Positions 19,454 through 63,939 of a stretch of 64,000 nucleotides of DNA are shown one piece after another (positions within the stretch are counted from its first letter, which is position 1; each line of letters opens with the position of its first letter). Made by a program: the position numbers and the translations under genes. The notes under the pieces were generated by a model that was not told the origin of the DNA, did no database searches, and saw only the letters and a list, made by a program, of their open reading frames with translations. This DNA is from Tachypleus tridentatus (taxonomy: Eukaryota), in the NCBI RefSeq assembly GCF_004210375.1, contig NC_134837.1, positions 252,553,964 through 252,617,963 of the forward strand, written 5' to 3'.

Positions 19454-19606
19454 TTATTCCAAACTGGTTTTCCACAGAAGCAGATGAACGTGACCACTGG
19501 CTGTGCCACAGACAATACGAATGTTGTCCACTGTTCTTAACATTTTACGGCCAAAAGTATGTACAGAAACTGCACTGATAGGTACTGGCATGTGAAACTG
19601 TCCCAG
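19454..19606 (-). CDS. Terminal coding exon of the NACHT-WD40 gene. The stop codon is at 19454-19456.
   Basis: cttttacag|CTGGGACAG...LLLWKTSLE then TAA. AATAAA signals lie further 3' (around 19100 on the minus strand). Confidence 0.6.
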   Translation of the reverse strand: MGQFHMPVPISAVSVHTFGRKMLRTVDNIRIVCGTASGHVHLLLWKTSLE

Positions 19607-19759
19607 CTGTAAAAGAAATTAGGTGAGAACATCAAGTGGATTTCTAGTCTATTCTTCATTTTGAAGTTTTCCATGTGAAAGCAAAATTCTCATCAACAAG
19701 AGAAAACTGTACAATTAGAGCAAATCATTTGTAGTATTCAGTGATGTTGAGAAAACCCA

Positions 19760-19930
19760 CTTGTAGAGAATATATATAAAATCGGTTAGCGGTTGAGAAC
19801 ATTTTTACTTAAGAGGAGTGAACAACGTTTCAACCTTCTTCGGTCATCTTCTTCGGAACCTGATGTTGACCGAAACATTGTTCACTCCTCTACTGAACCC
19901 AAACGAGCCGACATATAATATTTGTAGTAT
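19760..19930. repeat. Degenerate counterpart of the 7181-7355 hairpin. The outer arms no longer pair.
   Basis: The inner stem aagaggagtgaacaacgtttcaacc...ggttgaccgaaacattgttcactcctct is retained. The outer arms differ: the left has cggttagcggttgag and the right lacks gtaaaaaatgttctc. Confidence 0.7.
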
Positions 19931-20120
19931 TGTTTTCAAAGAACAACATTTCTCATGAAAATGTAATGTGACTTTAAATTTACCATTTTCAAAATCTGTA
20001 GTGATAAATGACATGTTTAAACAATTAAATAATTTGTTCTTAGAGAATGAGAGTACGGCTATTCAAAGTGTGCCATTAAGACAAACATATTATAAGAGTA
20101 CAAAATAAACTAGACAATAC

Positions 20121-20225
20121 CTGTTTCTGACTGAACAGATCCCACACCTTCAGTGTTCCATCAAGTGAAGATGTAAATAAAAACATTTCTGTACAGCAAA
20201 TAGCTGTCACAGACTTTGTGTGCAT
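20121..20225 (-). CDS. Penultimate WD40 exon of the NACHT-WD40 gene
   Basis: Same as 7557-7661 except for one substitution giving MHTKSVTAICC... (Leu to Val). Confidence 0.65.
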
Positions 20226-20730
20226 CTGTAAAAATACAATGCAGATAACAGACTATATACAGTCAAATCATAAATTATGTTACGGCTAATAAACAAGTAT
20301 AGGTCAACTGGGTCTTGAAGACAAGATTGTACTGATGATTTACAGAAATTAAAAGTTTTTTTTACATTTTTACAAGTAATGTTAAACCAAAACATAGATT
20401 TCTCTCAAAAAAACGTTTTTACTACAATTTCTCTTGTTTGTCATGGAAACAAAGCATCAGAAGAGTTAGTTGTCTCCCAAAGACCAACCTGTACAAAAGT
20501 ATAATTACTTCTCAAACAACATCCAACAAAACAGTTGCTACCATACATTTTTATAAATGTCTTTCAAAGCTATACTAAACAGAATTTCTTTTCAATGTTT
20601 ATGTCTCCTAATGATGTTGAAACAGATTATTTCCTCCAAATGAGTTTAATTAGGATTTAAAGAAATCTCTCGGTGTTTGAGAATAGAATCAAAATATAAG
20701 CTAATATATTTAATAAAAACTATAACGTAC

Positions 20731-60360: not shown

Positions 60361-60840
60361 CTTTTAACAGTCCAGTTGAATGATTTGGAGAAGGTTCAGA
60401 GAAAAGCCACTAGGATACCTAGGTTGGTGGGAGTGTCCTATGAGGAGCAACTACAGTCTCTAAACTTGTTTTCTCTGGAGAGGAGAAGATAACTCACGAG
60501 GTAATTTGATTGAATGTTTAAGATTATTATGGTATTGATAACACAGATCCATCAAAATGTTTTGTTTACCAGTGAAAACAATAGGACAAGCTCTCATAAG
60601 TTCAAGTTTTGGCAGCATAGCAGTCGTCCACAGTTTAGATAATATTATTTTTCAAACAGGGTGGTTGGTTTTCAAAATGAACTGCTTTCAAGGGTGGTGG
60701 AGGCAGAAAACTTGAATACAGTTCAATAACACACTGGATGAATACATGAATAGTAAGGGTTGGTTATAGTTGGGAGATGGAAGGGACATCCTTGATGGGC
60801 TAATAAGCTCATTTTTGTCCCTTTAAAATTATAGGAAATT
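60361..60840 (+). mobile_element. CR1-like LINE 3'-terminal fragment, intronic
   Basis: The frames read VQLNDLEKVQRKATRIPRLVGVSYEEQLQSLNLFSLERRR.LTRGNLIE (like CR1 [42 protein letters not shown]), then ..RTSSHKFKF..SRPQF (like RTRGHSLKL.KRRFRLD), then RVVGFQNELLSRVVEAENLNTVQ (like RVVRHWNRLPREVVDAPSLEVFK). Confidence 0.7.
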
Positions 60841-62380
60841 TATGAACAGGTTTCAATATAAACAGATAATGCAAGCACTAGCTATGTACAGAAGTGTTGT
60901 CAAGAAACTACTTTTTGTATTAGAAAATACAATTATTATCAACAACTTATTCTCTTTCTTCTATGGATGGATGTGGCTTAGTGGTTGATGTGTTGAACCA
61001 TGACTCCAAGCATCATGATTTGTGCCCCACTACCAAAAAACAGTATTCCTTGTTTTGGGATCACAGATACATTTTAAGAGGAGGTTTCAAATCTCACATT
61101 TTATTAGATTAATGGGTGCTGTTGATTTCTTGCATTTCTTCCAGTCCATCAATTCAAAATAACTGATAGCTAGTGTACATAGTCCTTGTGTTGCTTTTAA
61201 TTAATATCAGAAACTATTTAACTTTCACCAAACACACTTTTTCATTTTAGAATTTTATATGCATTCACATGGCATACCTGTTAAAATTATCATACACGCT
61301 TGTTTCATTGAATAAATTAACTCTTTTTTCTTGACAATCTATTTGAAAATATTGTTCAGATGCAATAAAAATACTTATTCATTAGCATAAAAATATACTC
61401 ATGAAAAACTACACAAAGGCTGACTGCACCGACCATCCCTACTTTTGAACTTATGTACAAGAGGAAAAACAGCATCCACCATCCACTCTCAGGTATTCTA
61501 ACTGAATAATAGAACTAAAAAGTAACTTTAATAATCCATGTCTCCTTATTCCAAAGTGCAGCACCACAAACCATTGACCTTCCTATTCACACTTGACATA
61601 TTCACCACGATTCCACATTGAGCCTTTAACAGAAATTAACTGGTTCAAGTAGTTTATATTTACTGTATAAAAGTGAATTCGTGAGAGAAATTTGGTGAAA
61701 CAGCCTACAATGTTGACTAATGCAGAAATTCACTTTATAAAATATTATCCCTATTTATTACAAGTAAAGGAGGAACAAGTTCTAATTCTAAATGGTGTCA
61801 ATAAAGTTCTTACACTTTAACGAGTTTGGAGATTTTAAGAGAAAAATAATTAAATAAAGGACAATTTCCAAAAGAAAAAAAACTATTTATTTTCCTCTTG
61901 TATCTGTTAAATAGCTAGTTATTTATTTATAGCTATATGAAGAAGGTTTCAAAATCCAGGTGCACAATCTATAAGGAATAATTTATATGAAGCCTAACTG
62001 AAAAGTATTTTTGAATACAAGAAAACAAAAAGGTGTTTACTGTGTATGGCACTGCTTCTATGTCATTACTTAAAAGTTTTGTTGTACATATACAAATATA
62101 TATGATAAATGTATTACTTTCACTAAGCTAACAAAAATTTAAATGAAGTTCAAAGCTAAACAAGATACCTACTTATATTAAAAGCAAGATTTAAAATCAA
62201 GCCAGTAATGAGTTCAGTTAATTAAATGAAGATACAGTAATTTTAATTAAAGTTTGGCTGCATGTTGTCATGTTTAAAACTACTGAACATGTAAATGCCT
62301 TGCAGAAGTGTAAGCAGCTACTAAAATGAAATATTCTCATAGGTGTGTCATTAAATAAAATAAACATGTAAAGCAACTTA

Positions 62381-62532
62381 CAGTAGGTAAGTCATGAGGC
62401 AGCCAGTCTAAACTTGGAGACTGTCCTTCATCTGATAATTGGTCTAAACCATCTATAAGGATTAGAAGTGTCTTACTTGAAGAAACAGAAACTGCTTCTT
62501 GTAGAATTTCCAGGAACTGGTGTTGTGCTTCT
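62381..62532 (-). CDS. NACHT domain exon containing the Walker B motif
   Basis: aaccag|.EAQHQFLEILQEAVSVSSSKTLLILIDGLDQLSDEGQSPSLDWLPHDLPT|gtaagt. hhhhDGLDE is the NACHT Walker B signature. Confidence 0.7.
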
Positions 62533-63784
62533 CTGGTTATTAAAATTGTGTAAAAGAAAACAAACAATTACAGCAACACATATGATCAATATCTAGTCCT
62601 AAATAACACCTACACTGTATTATCTACAGTAGCATTAACAGATAACCAAATACACAGTGCTGTAGAATTAATGAAAATTAAAAACTAAAACATGGTATTT
62701 TACTACTTAAATATTAACTATTCAAGTTTCAAACTCAGTAATATTTGGTTTAAAAAGAAAATAAAAGCACAGTTTTTGCTCTCTTACCACAAGCTATATT
62801 TTAAGAACTGTACTGATATAAATATAAAAAAATTATCTTCTAATGTCCAAGTATAAACAACAACAAAATTCAAAATGCAAAAGTGATGACAACATCATTT
62901 AGAAATTAGCTTTAATATTAAGTATAGGAACATTAATACGAACATTTTATAAAAATTAAATTCTAATAAAACAGAGCACAAGTTTAGACAAATATTAATG
63001 AAGCAAGCTAGTATTCAAAAATATCAGTTATGAAATATGACATAATGTGTTGAAAAATCCATAACTGTGATAATTAAAAAAAAGTTATTACAAATGACAT
63101 ACAGTGATGCCAATCTCAGTTTCATGTCATAATCCTTACAAAAAAAAAAAAAGAAATTTTTGTAAATAAACTTTATTAATTCAATATTTCACTATTGCAC
63201 CTTTGAAGCTGGAGATATAGGTAATGATACAATTTACATTTATAAAAGTGTCTCACCATAAACCCAGCTTGCATTGAACAAGTTACAGTTTTAACGAGAA
63301 ATGAATAATTAAGACATACAAGGAATTTTCATAGCATAAAAATGTCCAAGAGAAGTGTTTTACTATATTACTTGCTGCTATTTTTTATGTGTGAAACAAA
63401 TCACATACCACAGCACGTTTGAGACTCGTAAGAACAATCTTAATGTTTCTGTACTGATACATAACAAACTCAAATCAACTACTAAATTAATATAATACAA
63501 AATTTATAAACCCTACAGGAGCTATTCCCAAACATTGTTTAATATGTGTAGCAAAATTGACTTACCTTAAACTCAATATAAATAATTTGTTTTATTATGC
63601 TTTAAAAGCAACCTGAAACCCATTTACATGAAAACATTGGAAAAAATGAAAATATTAAAACTAGCAAAGTTACAACTTTATGGGTTCTTAAATATACACA
63701 CCCAATACGAGGTAACTGTAACAATACATTGTGCTAGTAAAGTAAAGAAAAATAAAGTACATCCAGTAACATTATGAACCCTAC

Positions 63785-63939
63785 TCTTTGTTTTTGGGCA
63801 GGGAACAGGTGAGATTCAGCTTGGAACAGATGCTGTTCAAAATATGCAGAAGAGTGTTGTCCAGAGCAGCAGACTGGGTATTTGTGTCTACAAAATGCGT
63901 CACGATGGGATGACCTTTGATCTTTTTACTGAGATGTGA
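63785..63939 (-). CDS. NACHT-region exon, 5'-most exon visible. The gene continues beyond the window end.
   Basis: ctccag|SHLSKKIKGHPIVTHFVDTNTQSAALDNTLLHILNSICSKLNLTCSLPKNK.|gtaggg. This is the only open frame. The P-loop exon is expected beyond 64000. Confidence 0.5.

What the first reader, a model, noticed from the sequence alone, without database searches (positions are those of the whole stretch)
19454..63939. Large minus-strand NACHT (STAND NTPase) plus multi-WD40 gene spanning over 44 kb, 5' end outside the window
At least 25 exons with canonical AG/GT boundaries translate into a NACHT Walker B exon (LLILIDGLDQLSDE at 62381-62532) and NACHT-associated helical exons (58308-58602, 53632-53944). 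These are followed by many classic WD40 repeats, for example [64 protein letters not shown] and VTGSADATVRVWDI, and a stop at 19454. The architecture matches the NWD1/TEP1/APAF1 class of animal STAND proteins. The exact orthology is not determinable by eye.
Basis: partly seen in the sequence, partly recalled or inferred. Interest (0 to 1): 0.5.

Follow-up and report, generated by a model that had tools for sequence, protein, structure and literature searches.

The report
Horseshoe crab TEP1 gene, 3' half

Summary
The minus strand from 63939 to 19454 carries 28 AG/GT-bounded exons. They encode the rear part of a NACHT NTPase, its winged-helix and helical domains, and about 20 WD40 blades.

One exon matched XP_076330930.1, "telomerase protein component 1-like" of Tachypleus tridentatus (2281 aa), at 100%. 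Residues 1149–2281 of that protein thread exactly through 23 window exons. The upstream part of the protein lies outside the window. It carries TROVE (374 bits), a DUF4062/TeTIR NADase domain (E=3e-60 to the human TEP1 crystal chain, catalytic residues kept) and the P-loop.

The gene is therefore TEP1, not NWD1/2 or APAF1.

There is one complication. As assembled, the reading frame ends at TAA 24510–24512, because a G4 run (24531–24534) seems to lack one base. Adding a G restores a WD40 blade and joins five further exons. I could not tell whether this is an assembly error or a real mutation.

An 8-kb, 98.8% identical duplication also copies the last two TEP1 exons downstream.

The gene is already known, so interest is low.

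The parts
63785..63939 (-). Exon 1 in the window (TEP1 residues 1149–1200). NACHT segment just after the P-loop; the P-loop exon lies beyond position 64000.
   Evidence: Exact threading of P0087, AG/GT flanks. Pfam NACHT stretch spans P0087 residues 1135–1263.
62382..62532 (-). Exon 2 (residues 1200–1250). NACHT Walker B, LLILIDGLDQL.
   Evidence: D79 and Q83 are nearly invariant in the family alignment A1.
58318..58602 (-). Exon 3 (residues 1251–1345). Rear of the NACHT, with the conserved NNQM…PLYL…ACEELRAFG motif.
   Evidence: 100% identical to P0087 residues 1251–1345, E=1.2e-52. Threading.
54776..57926 (-). Exons 4–6 (57794–57926, 57093–57279, 54776–54885; residues 1346–1489). Winged-helix domain, Pfam HTH_NWD1.
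   Evidence: HTH_NWD1 scores 30.3–31.7 bits against a cutoff of 27. Threading.
51623..53944 (-). Exons 7–8 (53632–53944, 51623–51779; residues 1489–1645). APAF1_C-like helical domain with the LPYHL motif, plus the linker into the WD40 region.
   Evidence: APAF1_C scores 27 bits against a cutoff of 22.8. Threading.
42376..50861 (-). Exons 9–15 (50766–50861, 48592–48716, 46650–46799, 45333–45441, 44899–45018, 43038–43136, 42376–42523; residues 1646–1928). First block of about 7 WD40 blades.
   Evidence: WD40 scores 141.8 bits. 38% identity to scorpion TEP1 residues 1570–1843. Threading.
27476..39360 (-). Exons 16–22 (39239–39360, 38182–38330, 34397–34496, 33969–34106, 30363–30470, 28853–28979, 27476–27567; residues 1928–2206). 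Second WD40 block.
   Evidence: Beta-prop_TEP1_2nd scores 163.9 bits against a cutoff of 89, best stretch P0087 residues 1972–2202. Threading.
24451..24737 (-). Exon 23 (residues 2207–2302 after correction). Two WD40 blades. As assembled, the frame ends at TAA 24510–24512, which is the RefSeq C-terminus …SVGMSWESW*.
   Evidence: Sequence. Orthologs align on both sides of about 24540 in two different frames. The corrected reading …VTFSVGDELGKLVIWELT… aligns with orthologs.
24531..24534 (-). G4 homopolymer (CCCC on the + strand) where one base appears to be missing. This is the apparent frameshift.
23403..23548 (-). Exon 24 (residues 2303–2351). The acceptor may instead be at 23572.
   Evidence: Splice candidates. 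Ortholog alignments.
22595..22697 (-). Exon 25 (residues 2351–2385).
20731..20868 (-). Exon 26 (residues 2386–2431).
20121..20225 (-). Exon 27 (residues 2432–2466), …SSLDGTLKVWDLFSQKQ. The donor at 20121 was chosen by ortholog alignment.
19454..19606 (-). Exon 28, the terminal exon, ending …GHVHLLLWKTSLE with TAA at 19454–19456. This is the TEP1 C-terminal propeller end.
   Evidence: Beta-prop_TEP1_C scores 65.7 bits against a cutoff of 32. Aligns to the last residues of scorpion and scallop TEP1.
6866..7661 (-). Orphan second copy of TEP1 exons 27 and 28 (7557–7661 and 6866–7018), inside the 8-kb duplicated segment.

Best explanation
The window holds the 3' 55% (28 exons, about 1,368 codons) of the TEP1 orthologue of the tri-spine horseshoe crab, Tachypleus tridentatus. 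TEP1 is telomerase protein component 1, the vault-associated protein.

**Architecture**
- The full protein reads TROVE (RNA-binding module), then DUF4062/TeTIR (TIR-like NADase), NACHT NTPase, winged helix, helical domain, and about 20 WD40 blades.
- The window encodes the part from just behind the P-loop to the C-terminus.

**Likely mechanism (inferred from published work on human and mouse TEP1, not tested here)**
- The TROVE end binds small RNAs (vault RNA, telomerase RNA) and is needed for vault RNA stability and its association with the vault particle.
- The NACHT–WHD–helical core acts as a nucleotide-driven STAND switch.
- The WD40 propellers serve as a docking or sensor platform.

**The frameshift**
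- The assembled sequence carries an apparent 1-nt deletion in a G4 run, which truncates the RefSeq CDS at 2281 aa.
- I think this is most likely an assembly or consensus error and that the real product is about 2516 aa, ending at 19454.
For: **Shown here**
- Exon 58318–58602 hits P0087 at 100%, E=1.2e-52.
- P0087 is XP_076330930.1, telomerase protein component 1-like, from a 276-Mb T. tridentatus contig.
- Residues 1149–2281 thread exactly through 23 AG/GT exons.
- P0087 Pfam scores: TROVE 374.2 bits and Beta-prop_TEP1_2nd 163.9 (cutoff 89). DUF4062 49.6, NACHT 27.7 (cutoff 26.7), HTH_NWD1 30.3 and APAF1_C 27.
- The DUF4062 region matches PDB 11gz_A, human 'Telomerase protein component 1', at E=3e-60. 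The F, R, RWG, C, R and E positions that the preprints mutate are all conserved.
- The next-best relatives are all TEP1-like proteins of 2,000–2,750 aa with the NACHT at the same position: scorpion, spider, scallop, crinoid, priapulid, sea urchin and lungfish TEP1.
- The frameshift-corrected 2516-aa model aligns in a single HSP with scorpion TEP1 (112–2511 against 87–2456 of 2458, 39% identity), scallop (107–2511 against 143–2699 of 2701) and lungfish TEP1 (264–2287, 31.9%).
- The part after the frameshift is as conserved as propeller 2: 29.9% against 30.4% to scorpion.

**From the literature**
- TEP1 is required for vault RNA stability and its association with vaults (PMC2193651).
- DUF4062/TeTIR of TEP1 is an active NADase, and TROVE/vWA ahead of TeTIR–NACHT is specific to TEP1 (bioRxiv 10.64898/2026.05.01.722283 and 10.64898/2026.09.21.753143).
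Against: - The link between the window exons and the TROVE/TeTIR half rests on a computational RefSeq (Gnomon) model whose 5' exons I could not see; P0087 was not retrievable with its DNA.
- As assembled, the ORF really does stop at 24510. No reads or transcripts were available to show that the missing G is an error.
- Relative to arachnid orthologues, about 50–60 residues (one blade) between exons 23 and 24 have no counterpart, and I found no exon for them. The last propeller is therefore either shorter or incompletely modelled.
- No functional property (RNA binding, vault association, NADase activity, NTPase activity) was or could be tested.
- Beta-prop_TEP1_C also appears in the precomputed domain lists of most of the unrelated bacterial WD40 proteins found here, so it is weak as a family marker.
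Confidence: 0.93

Rival explanations
1. The frameshift is genuine. This locus encodes a C-terminally truncated TEP1 (2281 aa, as RefSeq annotates) that lacks most of the last propeller. Alternatively it is a young decaying copy, for example one of the duplicates left by the horseshoe crab whole-genome duplications, and exons 24–28 are now untranslated.
For: - The assembled sequence has TAA in frame at 24510–24512, and RefSeq accepted that CDS.
- Horseshoe crabs have undergone multiple rounds of whole-genome duplication, so redundant copies are plausible (PMC7815833, PMC7210998).
- The locus also shows local structural instability, in the form of an 8-kb duplication that includes the terminal exons.
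Against: - All five downstream exons keep open frames, AG/GT sites and orthologue-level conservation: 29.9% to scorpion, the same as propeller 2, E=9e-31.
- The truncation would end the protein in the middle of a WD40 blade.
- The lesion is a single base in a homopolymer, which is the commonest type of consensus error.
- No other disabling change is seen in 4.1 kb of coding sequence.
Confidence: 0.27
2. It is an NWD1/NWD2-type protein (TeTIR–NACHT–WD40 with no TROVE extension), not TEP1.
For: - Pfam's winged-helix model that matches is named HTH_NWD1.
- The window alone shows only NACHT plus WD40, an architecture that NWD1/2 share.
Against: - The identical RefSeq protein has 864 residues upstream of the TeTIR, including a full-length TROVE domain at 374 bits.
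- According to 10.64898/2026.09.21.753143, that extension is found only in TEP1 and its orthologues.
- Every named protein among those I looked up from the closest full-length matches is TEP1 or TEP1-like.
- No protein named NWD1 or NWD2 appeared among the 30 hits I looked up.
Confidence: 0.02
3. It is an APAF1-like apoptosome protein, or a lineage-specific expanded NACHT–WD40 innate-immune receptor.
For: - An APAF1_C-like helical domain is present at 27 bits.
- The overall layout is a STAND NTPase followed by WD40 propellers.
Against: - NB-ARC is below its cutoff, at 19.3 against 23.5.
- The only effector-type domain found in the roughly 270 residues before the P-loop is DUF4062, not CARD.
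- A PDB sequence search with the NACHT–helical region found nothing, APAF1 included.
- End-to-end one-to-one collinearity with TEP1 across phyla argues against a lineage-specific expansion member.
Confidence: 0.01

Closest known systems
Vertebrate TEP1 (telomerase protein component 1, the vault minor protein). Represented here by lungfish XP_043914013.1 (P0152) and the human TEP1 TeTIR crystal chain 11gz_A.
   Same: - Same domain order: TROVE, DUF4062/TeTIR, NACHT, WHD, helical domain, WD40 propellers.
- Collinear over 2,137 alignment columns at 31.9% identity.
- TeTIR domain at E=3e-60, with the catalytic Glu, Cys, Arg and RWG positions conserved.
   Different: - Only about 30% identity.
- The horseshoe crab model is somewhat shorter: 2516 aa corrected, 2281 annotated, against 2579 for lungfish.
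- I did not check for the N-terminal TEP1 repeats.
- The assembled sequence has a frameshift in the last propeller.
Chelicerate TEP1-like proteins: Centruroides vittatus XP_067143150.1 (P0238), Stegodyphus XP_035227346.1, and an unnamed 2612-aa transcript product (P0088).
   Same: - These are the closest relatives found: 37–39% identity end to end, with matching C-terminus …G.VHLL.W.
   Different: - The arachnid proteins carry about 50–60 extra residues (one blade) between the equivalents of exons 23 and 24.
- They have no frameshift.
NWD1 / NWD2 (human TeTIR–NACHT–WD40 proteins)
   Same: - They share the TeTIR–NACHT–WHD (HTH_NWD1)–helical–WD40 core.
   Different: - They lack the TROVE/vWA extension.
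- The literature describes them as divergent subfamilies, detectable from TEP1 only with profile methods.
- No protein named NWD1 or NWD2 was among the hits I looked up.
APAF1
   Same: - STAND NTPase followed by a helical domain and WD40 propellers.
- The Pfam APAF1_C model matches the helical domain.
   Different: - APAF1 has a CARD effector and an NB-ARC type NTPase.
- Here the effector is TeTIR, the NTPase is NACHT-type, and an RNA-binding TROVE module is added.
Prokaryotic DUF4062–NACHT proteins (e.g. P0068 and P0080 from Blastocatellia MAGs; Swarozyc-type DUF4062 defence proteins)
   Same: - About 30% identity across the NACHT–WHD region, with shared motifs such as LDGLDQL, ACEELRVFG and ELPYHL.
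   Different: - They have no TROVE domain.
- They are shorter.
- They are intronless prokaryotic genes.

Membership tests
TEP1 (telomerase protein component 1 / vault-associated protein) | N-terminal TROVE module upstream of the STAND core. Among TeTIR–NACHT proteins this is unique to TEP1. | tested here: met
   TROVE scores 374.2 bits (cutoff 23) and covers 18–442 of 442 model positions, at P0087 residues 220–623. It lies outside the window. The link to the window exons comes from exact threading of P0087 residues 1149–2281.
TEP1 (telomerase protein component 1 / vault-associated protein) | DUF4062/TeTIR TIR-like NADase domain immediately upstream of the NACHT, with the catalytic glutamate and the RWG loop. 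| tested here: met
   DUF4062 scores 49.6 bits. The match to human TEP1 TeTIR chain 11gz_A has E=3e-60, with STF, GERDLL, RWG, VCL, RYG and SVTE(L/M)E aligned. The functional residues are those named. This domain is outside the window.
TEP1 (telomerase protein component 1 / vault-associated protein) | NACHT-type NTPase with P-loop and Walker B. | tested here: met
   NACHT scores 27.7 bits against a cutoff of 26.7 when the P-loop exon is included. From the window alone it scores only 14.5 bits, because the P-loop is outside. Walker B LLILIDGLDQL is at 62382–62532.
TEP1 (telomerase protein component 1 / vault-associated protein) | Winged-helix and APAF1-like helical domains, followed by a long WD40 region (multiple propellers). 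| tested here: met
   HTH_NWD1 scores 30.3–31.7 bits (cutoff 27) and APAF1_C 27 (cutoff 22.8). WD40 scores 180 bits. Beta-prop_TEP1_2nd scores 163.9 (cutoff 89) and Beta-prop_TEP1_C 65.7 (cutoff 32). The blade count of about 20 is my own reading of the sequence, not a structural result.
TEP1 (telomerase protein component 1 / vault-associated protein) | One-to-one, end-to-end collinearity with accepted TEP1 proteins. | tested here: met
   Single HSPs to lungfish TEP1 (1030 bits), scorpion (1649 bits), scallop (1332 bits), priapulid and sea urchin TEP1-like proteins. No formal phylogeny was built.
TEP1 (telomerase protein component 1 / vault-associated protein) | Binds vault or telomerase RNA, resides in vault particles, and hydrolyses NAD+. 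| not testable with these tools
   These are known for mammalian TEP1 (PMC2193651).
NWD1 / NWD2 | TeTIR at or near the protein N-terminus, with no TROVE/vWA extension. | tested here: not met
   864 residues, including a full TROVE domain, precede the TeTIR in P0087.
APAF1 | CARD effector plus an NB-ARC NTPase. | tested here: not met
   NB-ARC scores 19.3 bits, below the 23.5 cutoff. Only DUF4062 was found in the 270 residues before the P-loop. A PDB sequence search of the NACHT–helical region found nothing at E≤1.

The most novel reading that the evidence does not exclude
The missing G at 24531–24534 is real. In that case this horseshoe crab TEP1 copy makes a protein that lacks most of its last β-propeller, or is an NMD-prone young pseudogene. 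The nearby 8-kb duplication, which carries a spare pair of terminal exons, could be part of ongoing remodelling of the gene's 3' end after the xiphosuran genome duplications. That would make it a natural C-terminal truncation of a STAND NADase, whose sensor or docking end is thought to regulate the effector.
Probability: 0.22. Interest if true: 0.3.

Novelty: already known. Interest (0 to 1): 0.13.

Why it matters
As a discovery it matters little. TEP1 is a well-known, widely conserved animal gene, and this locus is already annotated in RefSeq.

There are two modest points of value:
- **Annotation.** The RefSeq protein (2281 aa) is probably about 235 residues too short because of a single-base homopolymer problem. 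A quick check of the reads would settle that.
- **Context.** TEP1 was reported in two 2026 preprints to be an active TIR-like NADase inside a STAND architecture. The horseshoe crab orthologue keeps every catalytic residue, so chelicerates retain the complete TROVE–TeTIR–NACHT–WD40 machine.

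Tried and rejected
**Gene modelling by splice scores**
- Pairwise splice-site scoring and a home-made dynamic-programming gene finder gave a 37-exon draft.
- It contained spurious mini-exons: 63409–63448, 47237–47338, 46434–46505, 44070–44169, 43720–43754, 25892–25925, 25785–25838, 24451–24469 and 22889–22928.
- It also placed several boundaries wrongly: exon 2 started at 62516 instead of 62532, exon 10 at 48730 instead of 48716 and exon 26 at 20892 instead of 20868. It cut exon 9 short at 50801 and exon 17 at 38232, and used the donor at 20148 instead of 20121.
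- I discarded these after the exact threading of P0087 and the ortholog alignment.

**Rejected exon candidates**
- Open frames at 60463–60651, 49973–50176, 44023–44268 and 41711–41884 were considered as exons and rejected. They are absent from P0087 and from the orthologues.

**Homologue searches**
- The three word-indexed homologue searches returned only relatives at 34% identity or less, mostly from metagenomes. None was longer than about 1,320 aa and none was a full-length TEP1, so they could not decide orthology.
A single exon worked.
- A PDB search with the NACHT–helical region found nothing.
- The look-up of encoding contigs for P0087 returned "not on record", so the upstream exons and flanks could not be read.

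**Other checks**
- I searched for an exon encoding the roughly 50–60 residues that arachnids have between exons 23 and 24 and found nothing convincing.
- I looked for a splice route around the frameshift. The only AG at the site would need a 13-nt intron. The alternative (donor 24718 to acceptor 24535) would delete a conserved blade.
- The Rfam scan of the window returned no hits.
- The last name look-up, aimed at finding NWD1/2 among the shorter hits, returned only protist or prokaryotic proteins and unnamed ones.

Full report

The window is AT-rich (about 30% G+C) eukaryotic DNA. Rough concatenations of those frames gave Pfam WD40 at E=2.8e-42, HTH_NWD1 at 31.7 bits (cutoff 27), and Beta-prop_TEP1_2nd and Beta-prop_TEP1_C above their cutoffs. 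NACHT itself scored only 14.5 bits, because the P-loop is not in the window. So the NACHT-plus-WD40 reading is far beyond chance.

**2. What is it?**

The word-indexed protein searches did not help much. They returned only relatives at 34% identity or less, mostly metagenomic DUF4062–NACHT–WHD proteins, and nothing longer than about 1,320 aa.

I therefore submitted the single exon 58318–58602. It hit P0087 at 100% identity over all 95 residues, E=1.2e-52, at residues 1251–1345 of a 2281-aa protein.
- P0087 is XP_076330930.1, [quoted passage not shown], from a 276-Mb contig.
- The next hits are 2,000–2,750-aa proteins matching at the same relative position. Those with names are TEP1 or TEP1-like: scorpion, spider, clam, scallop, crinoid, priapulid, sea urchin and lungfish.
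- Residues 1149–2281 of P0087, plus its stop codon, thread exactly through 23 exons from 63939 to 24510, all with AG…GT flanks.

The window is therefore horseshoe crab genomic DNA, and the gene is already annotated.

**3. Family membership**

The part of P0087 encoded outside the window has the following:
- a full-length TROVE domain, 374 bits;
- DUF4062 at 49.6 bits directly upstream of the P-loop GKPGSGKT. With that P-loop exon included, NACHT passes its cutoff (27.7 against 26.7), and HTH_NWD1 (30.3) and APAF1_C (27) follow;
- a DUF4062 region that matches the crystal chain 11gz_A, human "Telomerase protein component 1", at E=3e-60. The aligned residues include STF, GERDLL, RWG, VCL, RYG and SVTE-x-E. 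These correspond to F902, R914, R942/W943, C959, R976 and E1008, shown by mutagenesis to be needed for NADase activity.

According to the 2026 TeTIR preprint, TEP1, NWD1, NWD2, TTC41 and NPHP3 share TeTIR–NACHT, but only TEP1 and its orthologues carry the N-terminal TROVE/vWA extension. That feature is met, so the gene is TEP1. NWD1/2 would have no TROVE. APAF1 would have CARD and NB-ARC, and here NB-ARC is below its cutoff and the PDB search found nothing.

**4. The 3' end and the frameshift**

RefSeq's protein ends …DNGVTFSVGMSWESW* at TAA 24510–24512.

Arachnid TEP1 proteins align to the window on both sides of about 24540, but in two different frames. They then continue into 23566–23360, 20243–20049 and 19609–19472.

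The DNA reads tca gtg ggg atg agt tgg gaa agc tgg taa. With one extra G in the GGGG run (24531–24534), it reads …VTFSVGDELGKLVIWELTINGSLSAISYCGHEE|gtaggt. That is a textbook WD40 blade ending at a strong donor, and it aligns with ALSGDEYGNLILWQIT and GFSCDITGKLIIWSFN in the orthologues.

Five further AG/GT exons then give a 2516-aa protein: 23403–23548, 22595–22697, 20731–20868, 20121–20225 and 19454–19606. That protein has these properties:
- It aligns in one HSP with scorpion TEP1 (112–2511 against 87–2456 of 2458, 39% identity), with scallop TEP1-like through to its last residues, and with lungfish TEP1 over 264–2287.
- Its post-frameshift segment is as conserved as propeller 2: 29.9% against 30.4% to scorpion, E=9e-31.
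- Its tail matches Beta-prop_TEP1_C at 65.7 bits.

No plausible intron bypasses the site.

I favour a homopolymer consensus error, at roughly 70%. The reasons are that everything downstream is intact and conserved, and that the truncation falls in mid-blade. A genuine recent mutation cannot be excluded. Horseshoe crabs have undergone multiple whole-genome duplications, so redundant copies could decay (PMC7815833, PMC7210998).

**5. Remaining uncertainty in the model**

- Arachnid orthologues have about 50–60 residues (one blade) between the equivalents of exons 23 and 24. I found no exon for them.
- The acceptor of exon 24 may be at 23572 rather than 23548.
- Exon 23 uses an unusual AAG acceptor, but it is the one in the RefSeq model.
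- The final table has 28 exons and 4,106 coding nucleotides. Introns range from 290 to 3,779 nt.

**6. How it probably works (inference from the literature)**

- TEP1 associates with vault and telomerase RNAs. In mouse it is needed for vault RNA stability and its association with the vault particle (PMC2193651). The TeTIR preprint attributes the RNA binding to the N-terminal TROVE region.
- The NACHT–WHD–helical core and the WD40 propellers, which are the parts encoded in this window, are proposed to act as the nucleotide-dependent switch and the sensor or docking platform of a STAND protein, regulating the effector. No activation mechanism has yet been demonstrated.
- Nothing in the horseshoe crab sequence argues against this. 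The Walker B motif and all TeTIR catalytic residues are present.

**7. Novelty**

This is a known gene of a known family, in an annotated genome. The only new content is the probable one-base problem that shortens the RefSeq protein, and the partial duplication of the gene's 3' end.

**8. Surroundings**

- Positions 1–8017 and 12586–20591 are a 98.8% identical direct duplication.
- Copy B contains TEP1 exons 27–28, and its edge (20591) lies inside intron 26. Copy A therefore carries orphan copies of those two exons, at 7557–7661 and 6866–7018, with the last one identical in protein.
- Both copies also carry an intronless 358-codon ORF of the arylamine N-acetyltransferase family (PF00797, 39 bits) and possible remnants of a transposase-like gene.
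- Several introns hold minisatellites.
- Rfam found nothing.

Noticed in passing
window 1–8017 and 12586–20591: An 8-kb direct duplication at 98.8% identity, separated by a 4.6-kb unique spacer. Copy A starts at the window edge, so it may be longer. Copy B's right edge (20591) lies inside TEP1 intron 26, so the duplicated block includes the gene's last two exons plus its downstream flank. It could be a true segmental duplication or an assembly artefact.
   Followed up: partly
window 6866–7018 and 7557–7661 (minus strand): Orphan copies of TEP1 exons 28 and 27. The terminal-exon copy encodes an identical peptide, LGQFHM…WKTSLE*. The exon-27 segment (with 10-nt flanks) has 2 mismatches in 125 nt. 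I do not know whether they are ever spliced.
   Followed up: partly
window 2347–3423 and 14929–16005 (+ strand): Two identical intronless 358-codon ORFs matching the arylamine N-acetyltransferase family (Pfam Acetyltransf_2, 39 bits against a cutoff of 22.8). There is one in each copy of the duplication, downstream of TEP1 on the opposite strand.
   Followed up: partly
window 936–1313, 1504–1821 and 13649–13897, 14088–14405 (+ strand): Short ORFs that look to me like the N-terminal part of a Tc1/mariner-type transposase (MAKAKKLTEFERGRIVELQKQG…). They are probably remnants of a transposon, broken into separate frames. Pfam support is weak: HTH_38 at 21.9 bits, below its cutoff of 27.
   Followed up: partly
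window 36610–37246: A 45-bp unit repeated 14.2 times at 98% match, inside TEP1 intron 17. It produces a misleading 213-codon plus-strand 'ORF' at 36621–37262.
   Followed up: yes
window 21930–22280, 30816–31100, 33690–33888, 50921–51208: Further intronic minisatellites with periods of 68/139, 55/113, 46/93 and 69 bp.
   Followed up: no
window about 20000–52000 compared with 1–19000: Plus-strand GC skew is persistently negative (about −0.04 to −0.16 per 2-kb bin, except 32–34 kb) and AT skew is positive across the TEP1 gene body. Both are near zero in the intergenic or duplicated part. This is consistent with transcription-associated strand asymmetry in the long introns.
   Followed up: no
window 23549–24450 (intron 23): Arachnid TEP1 orthologues have about 50–60 residues (roughly one WD40 blade) here that the horseshoe crab model lacks. 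No convincing exon was found, so the last propeller may have one blade fewer, or a small exon is still undetected.
   Followed up: partly
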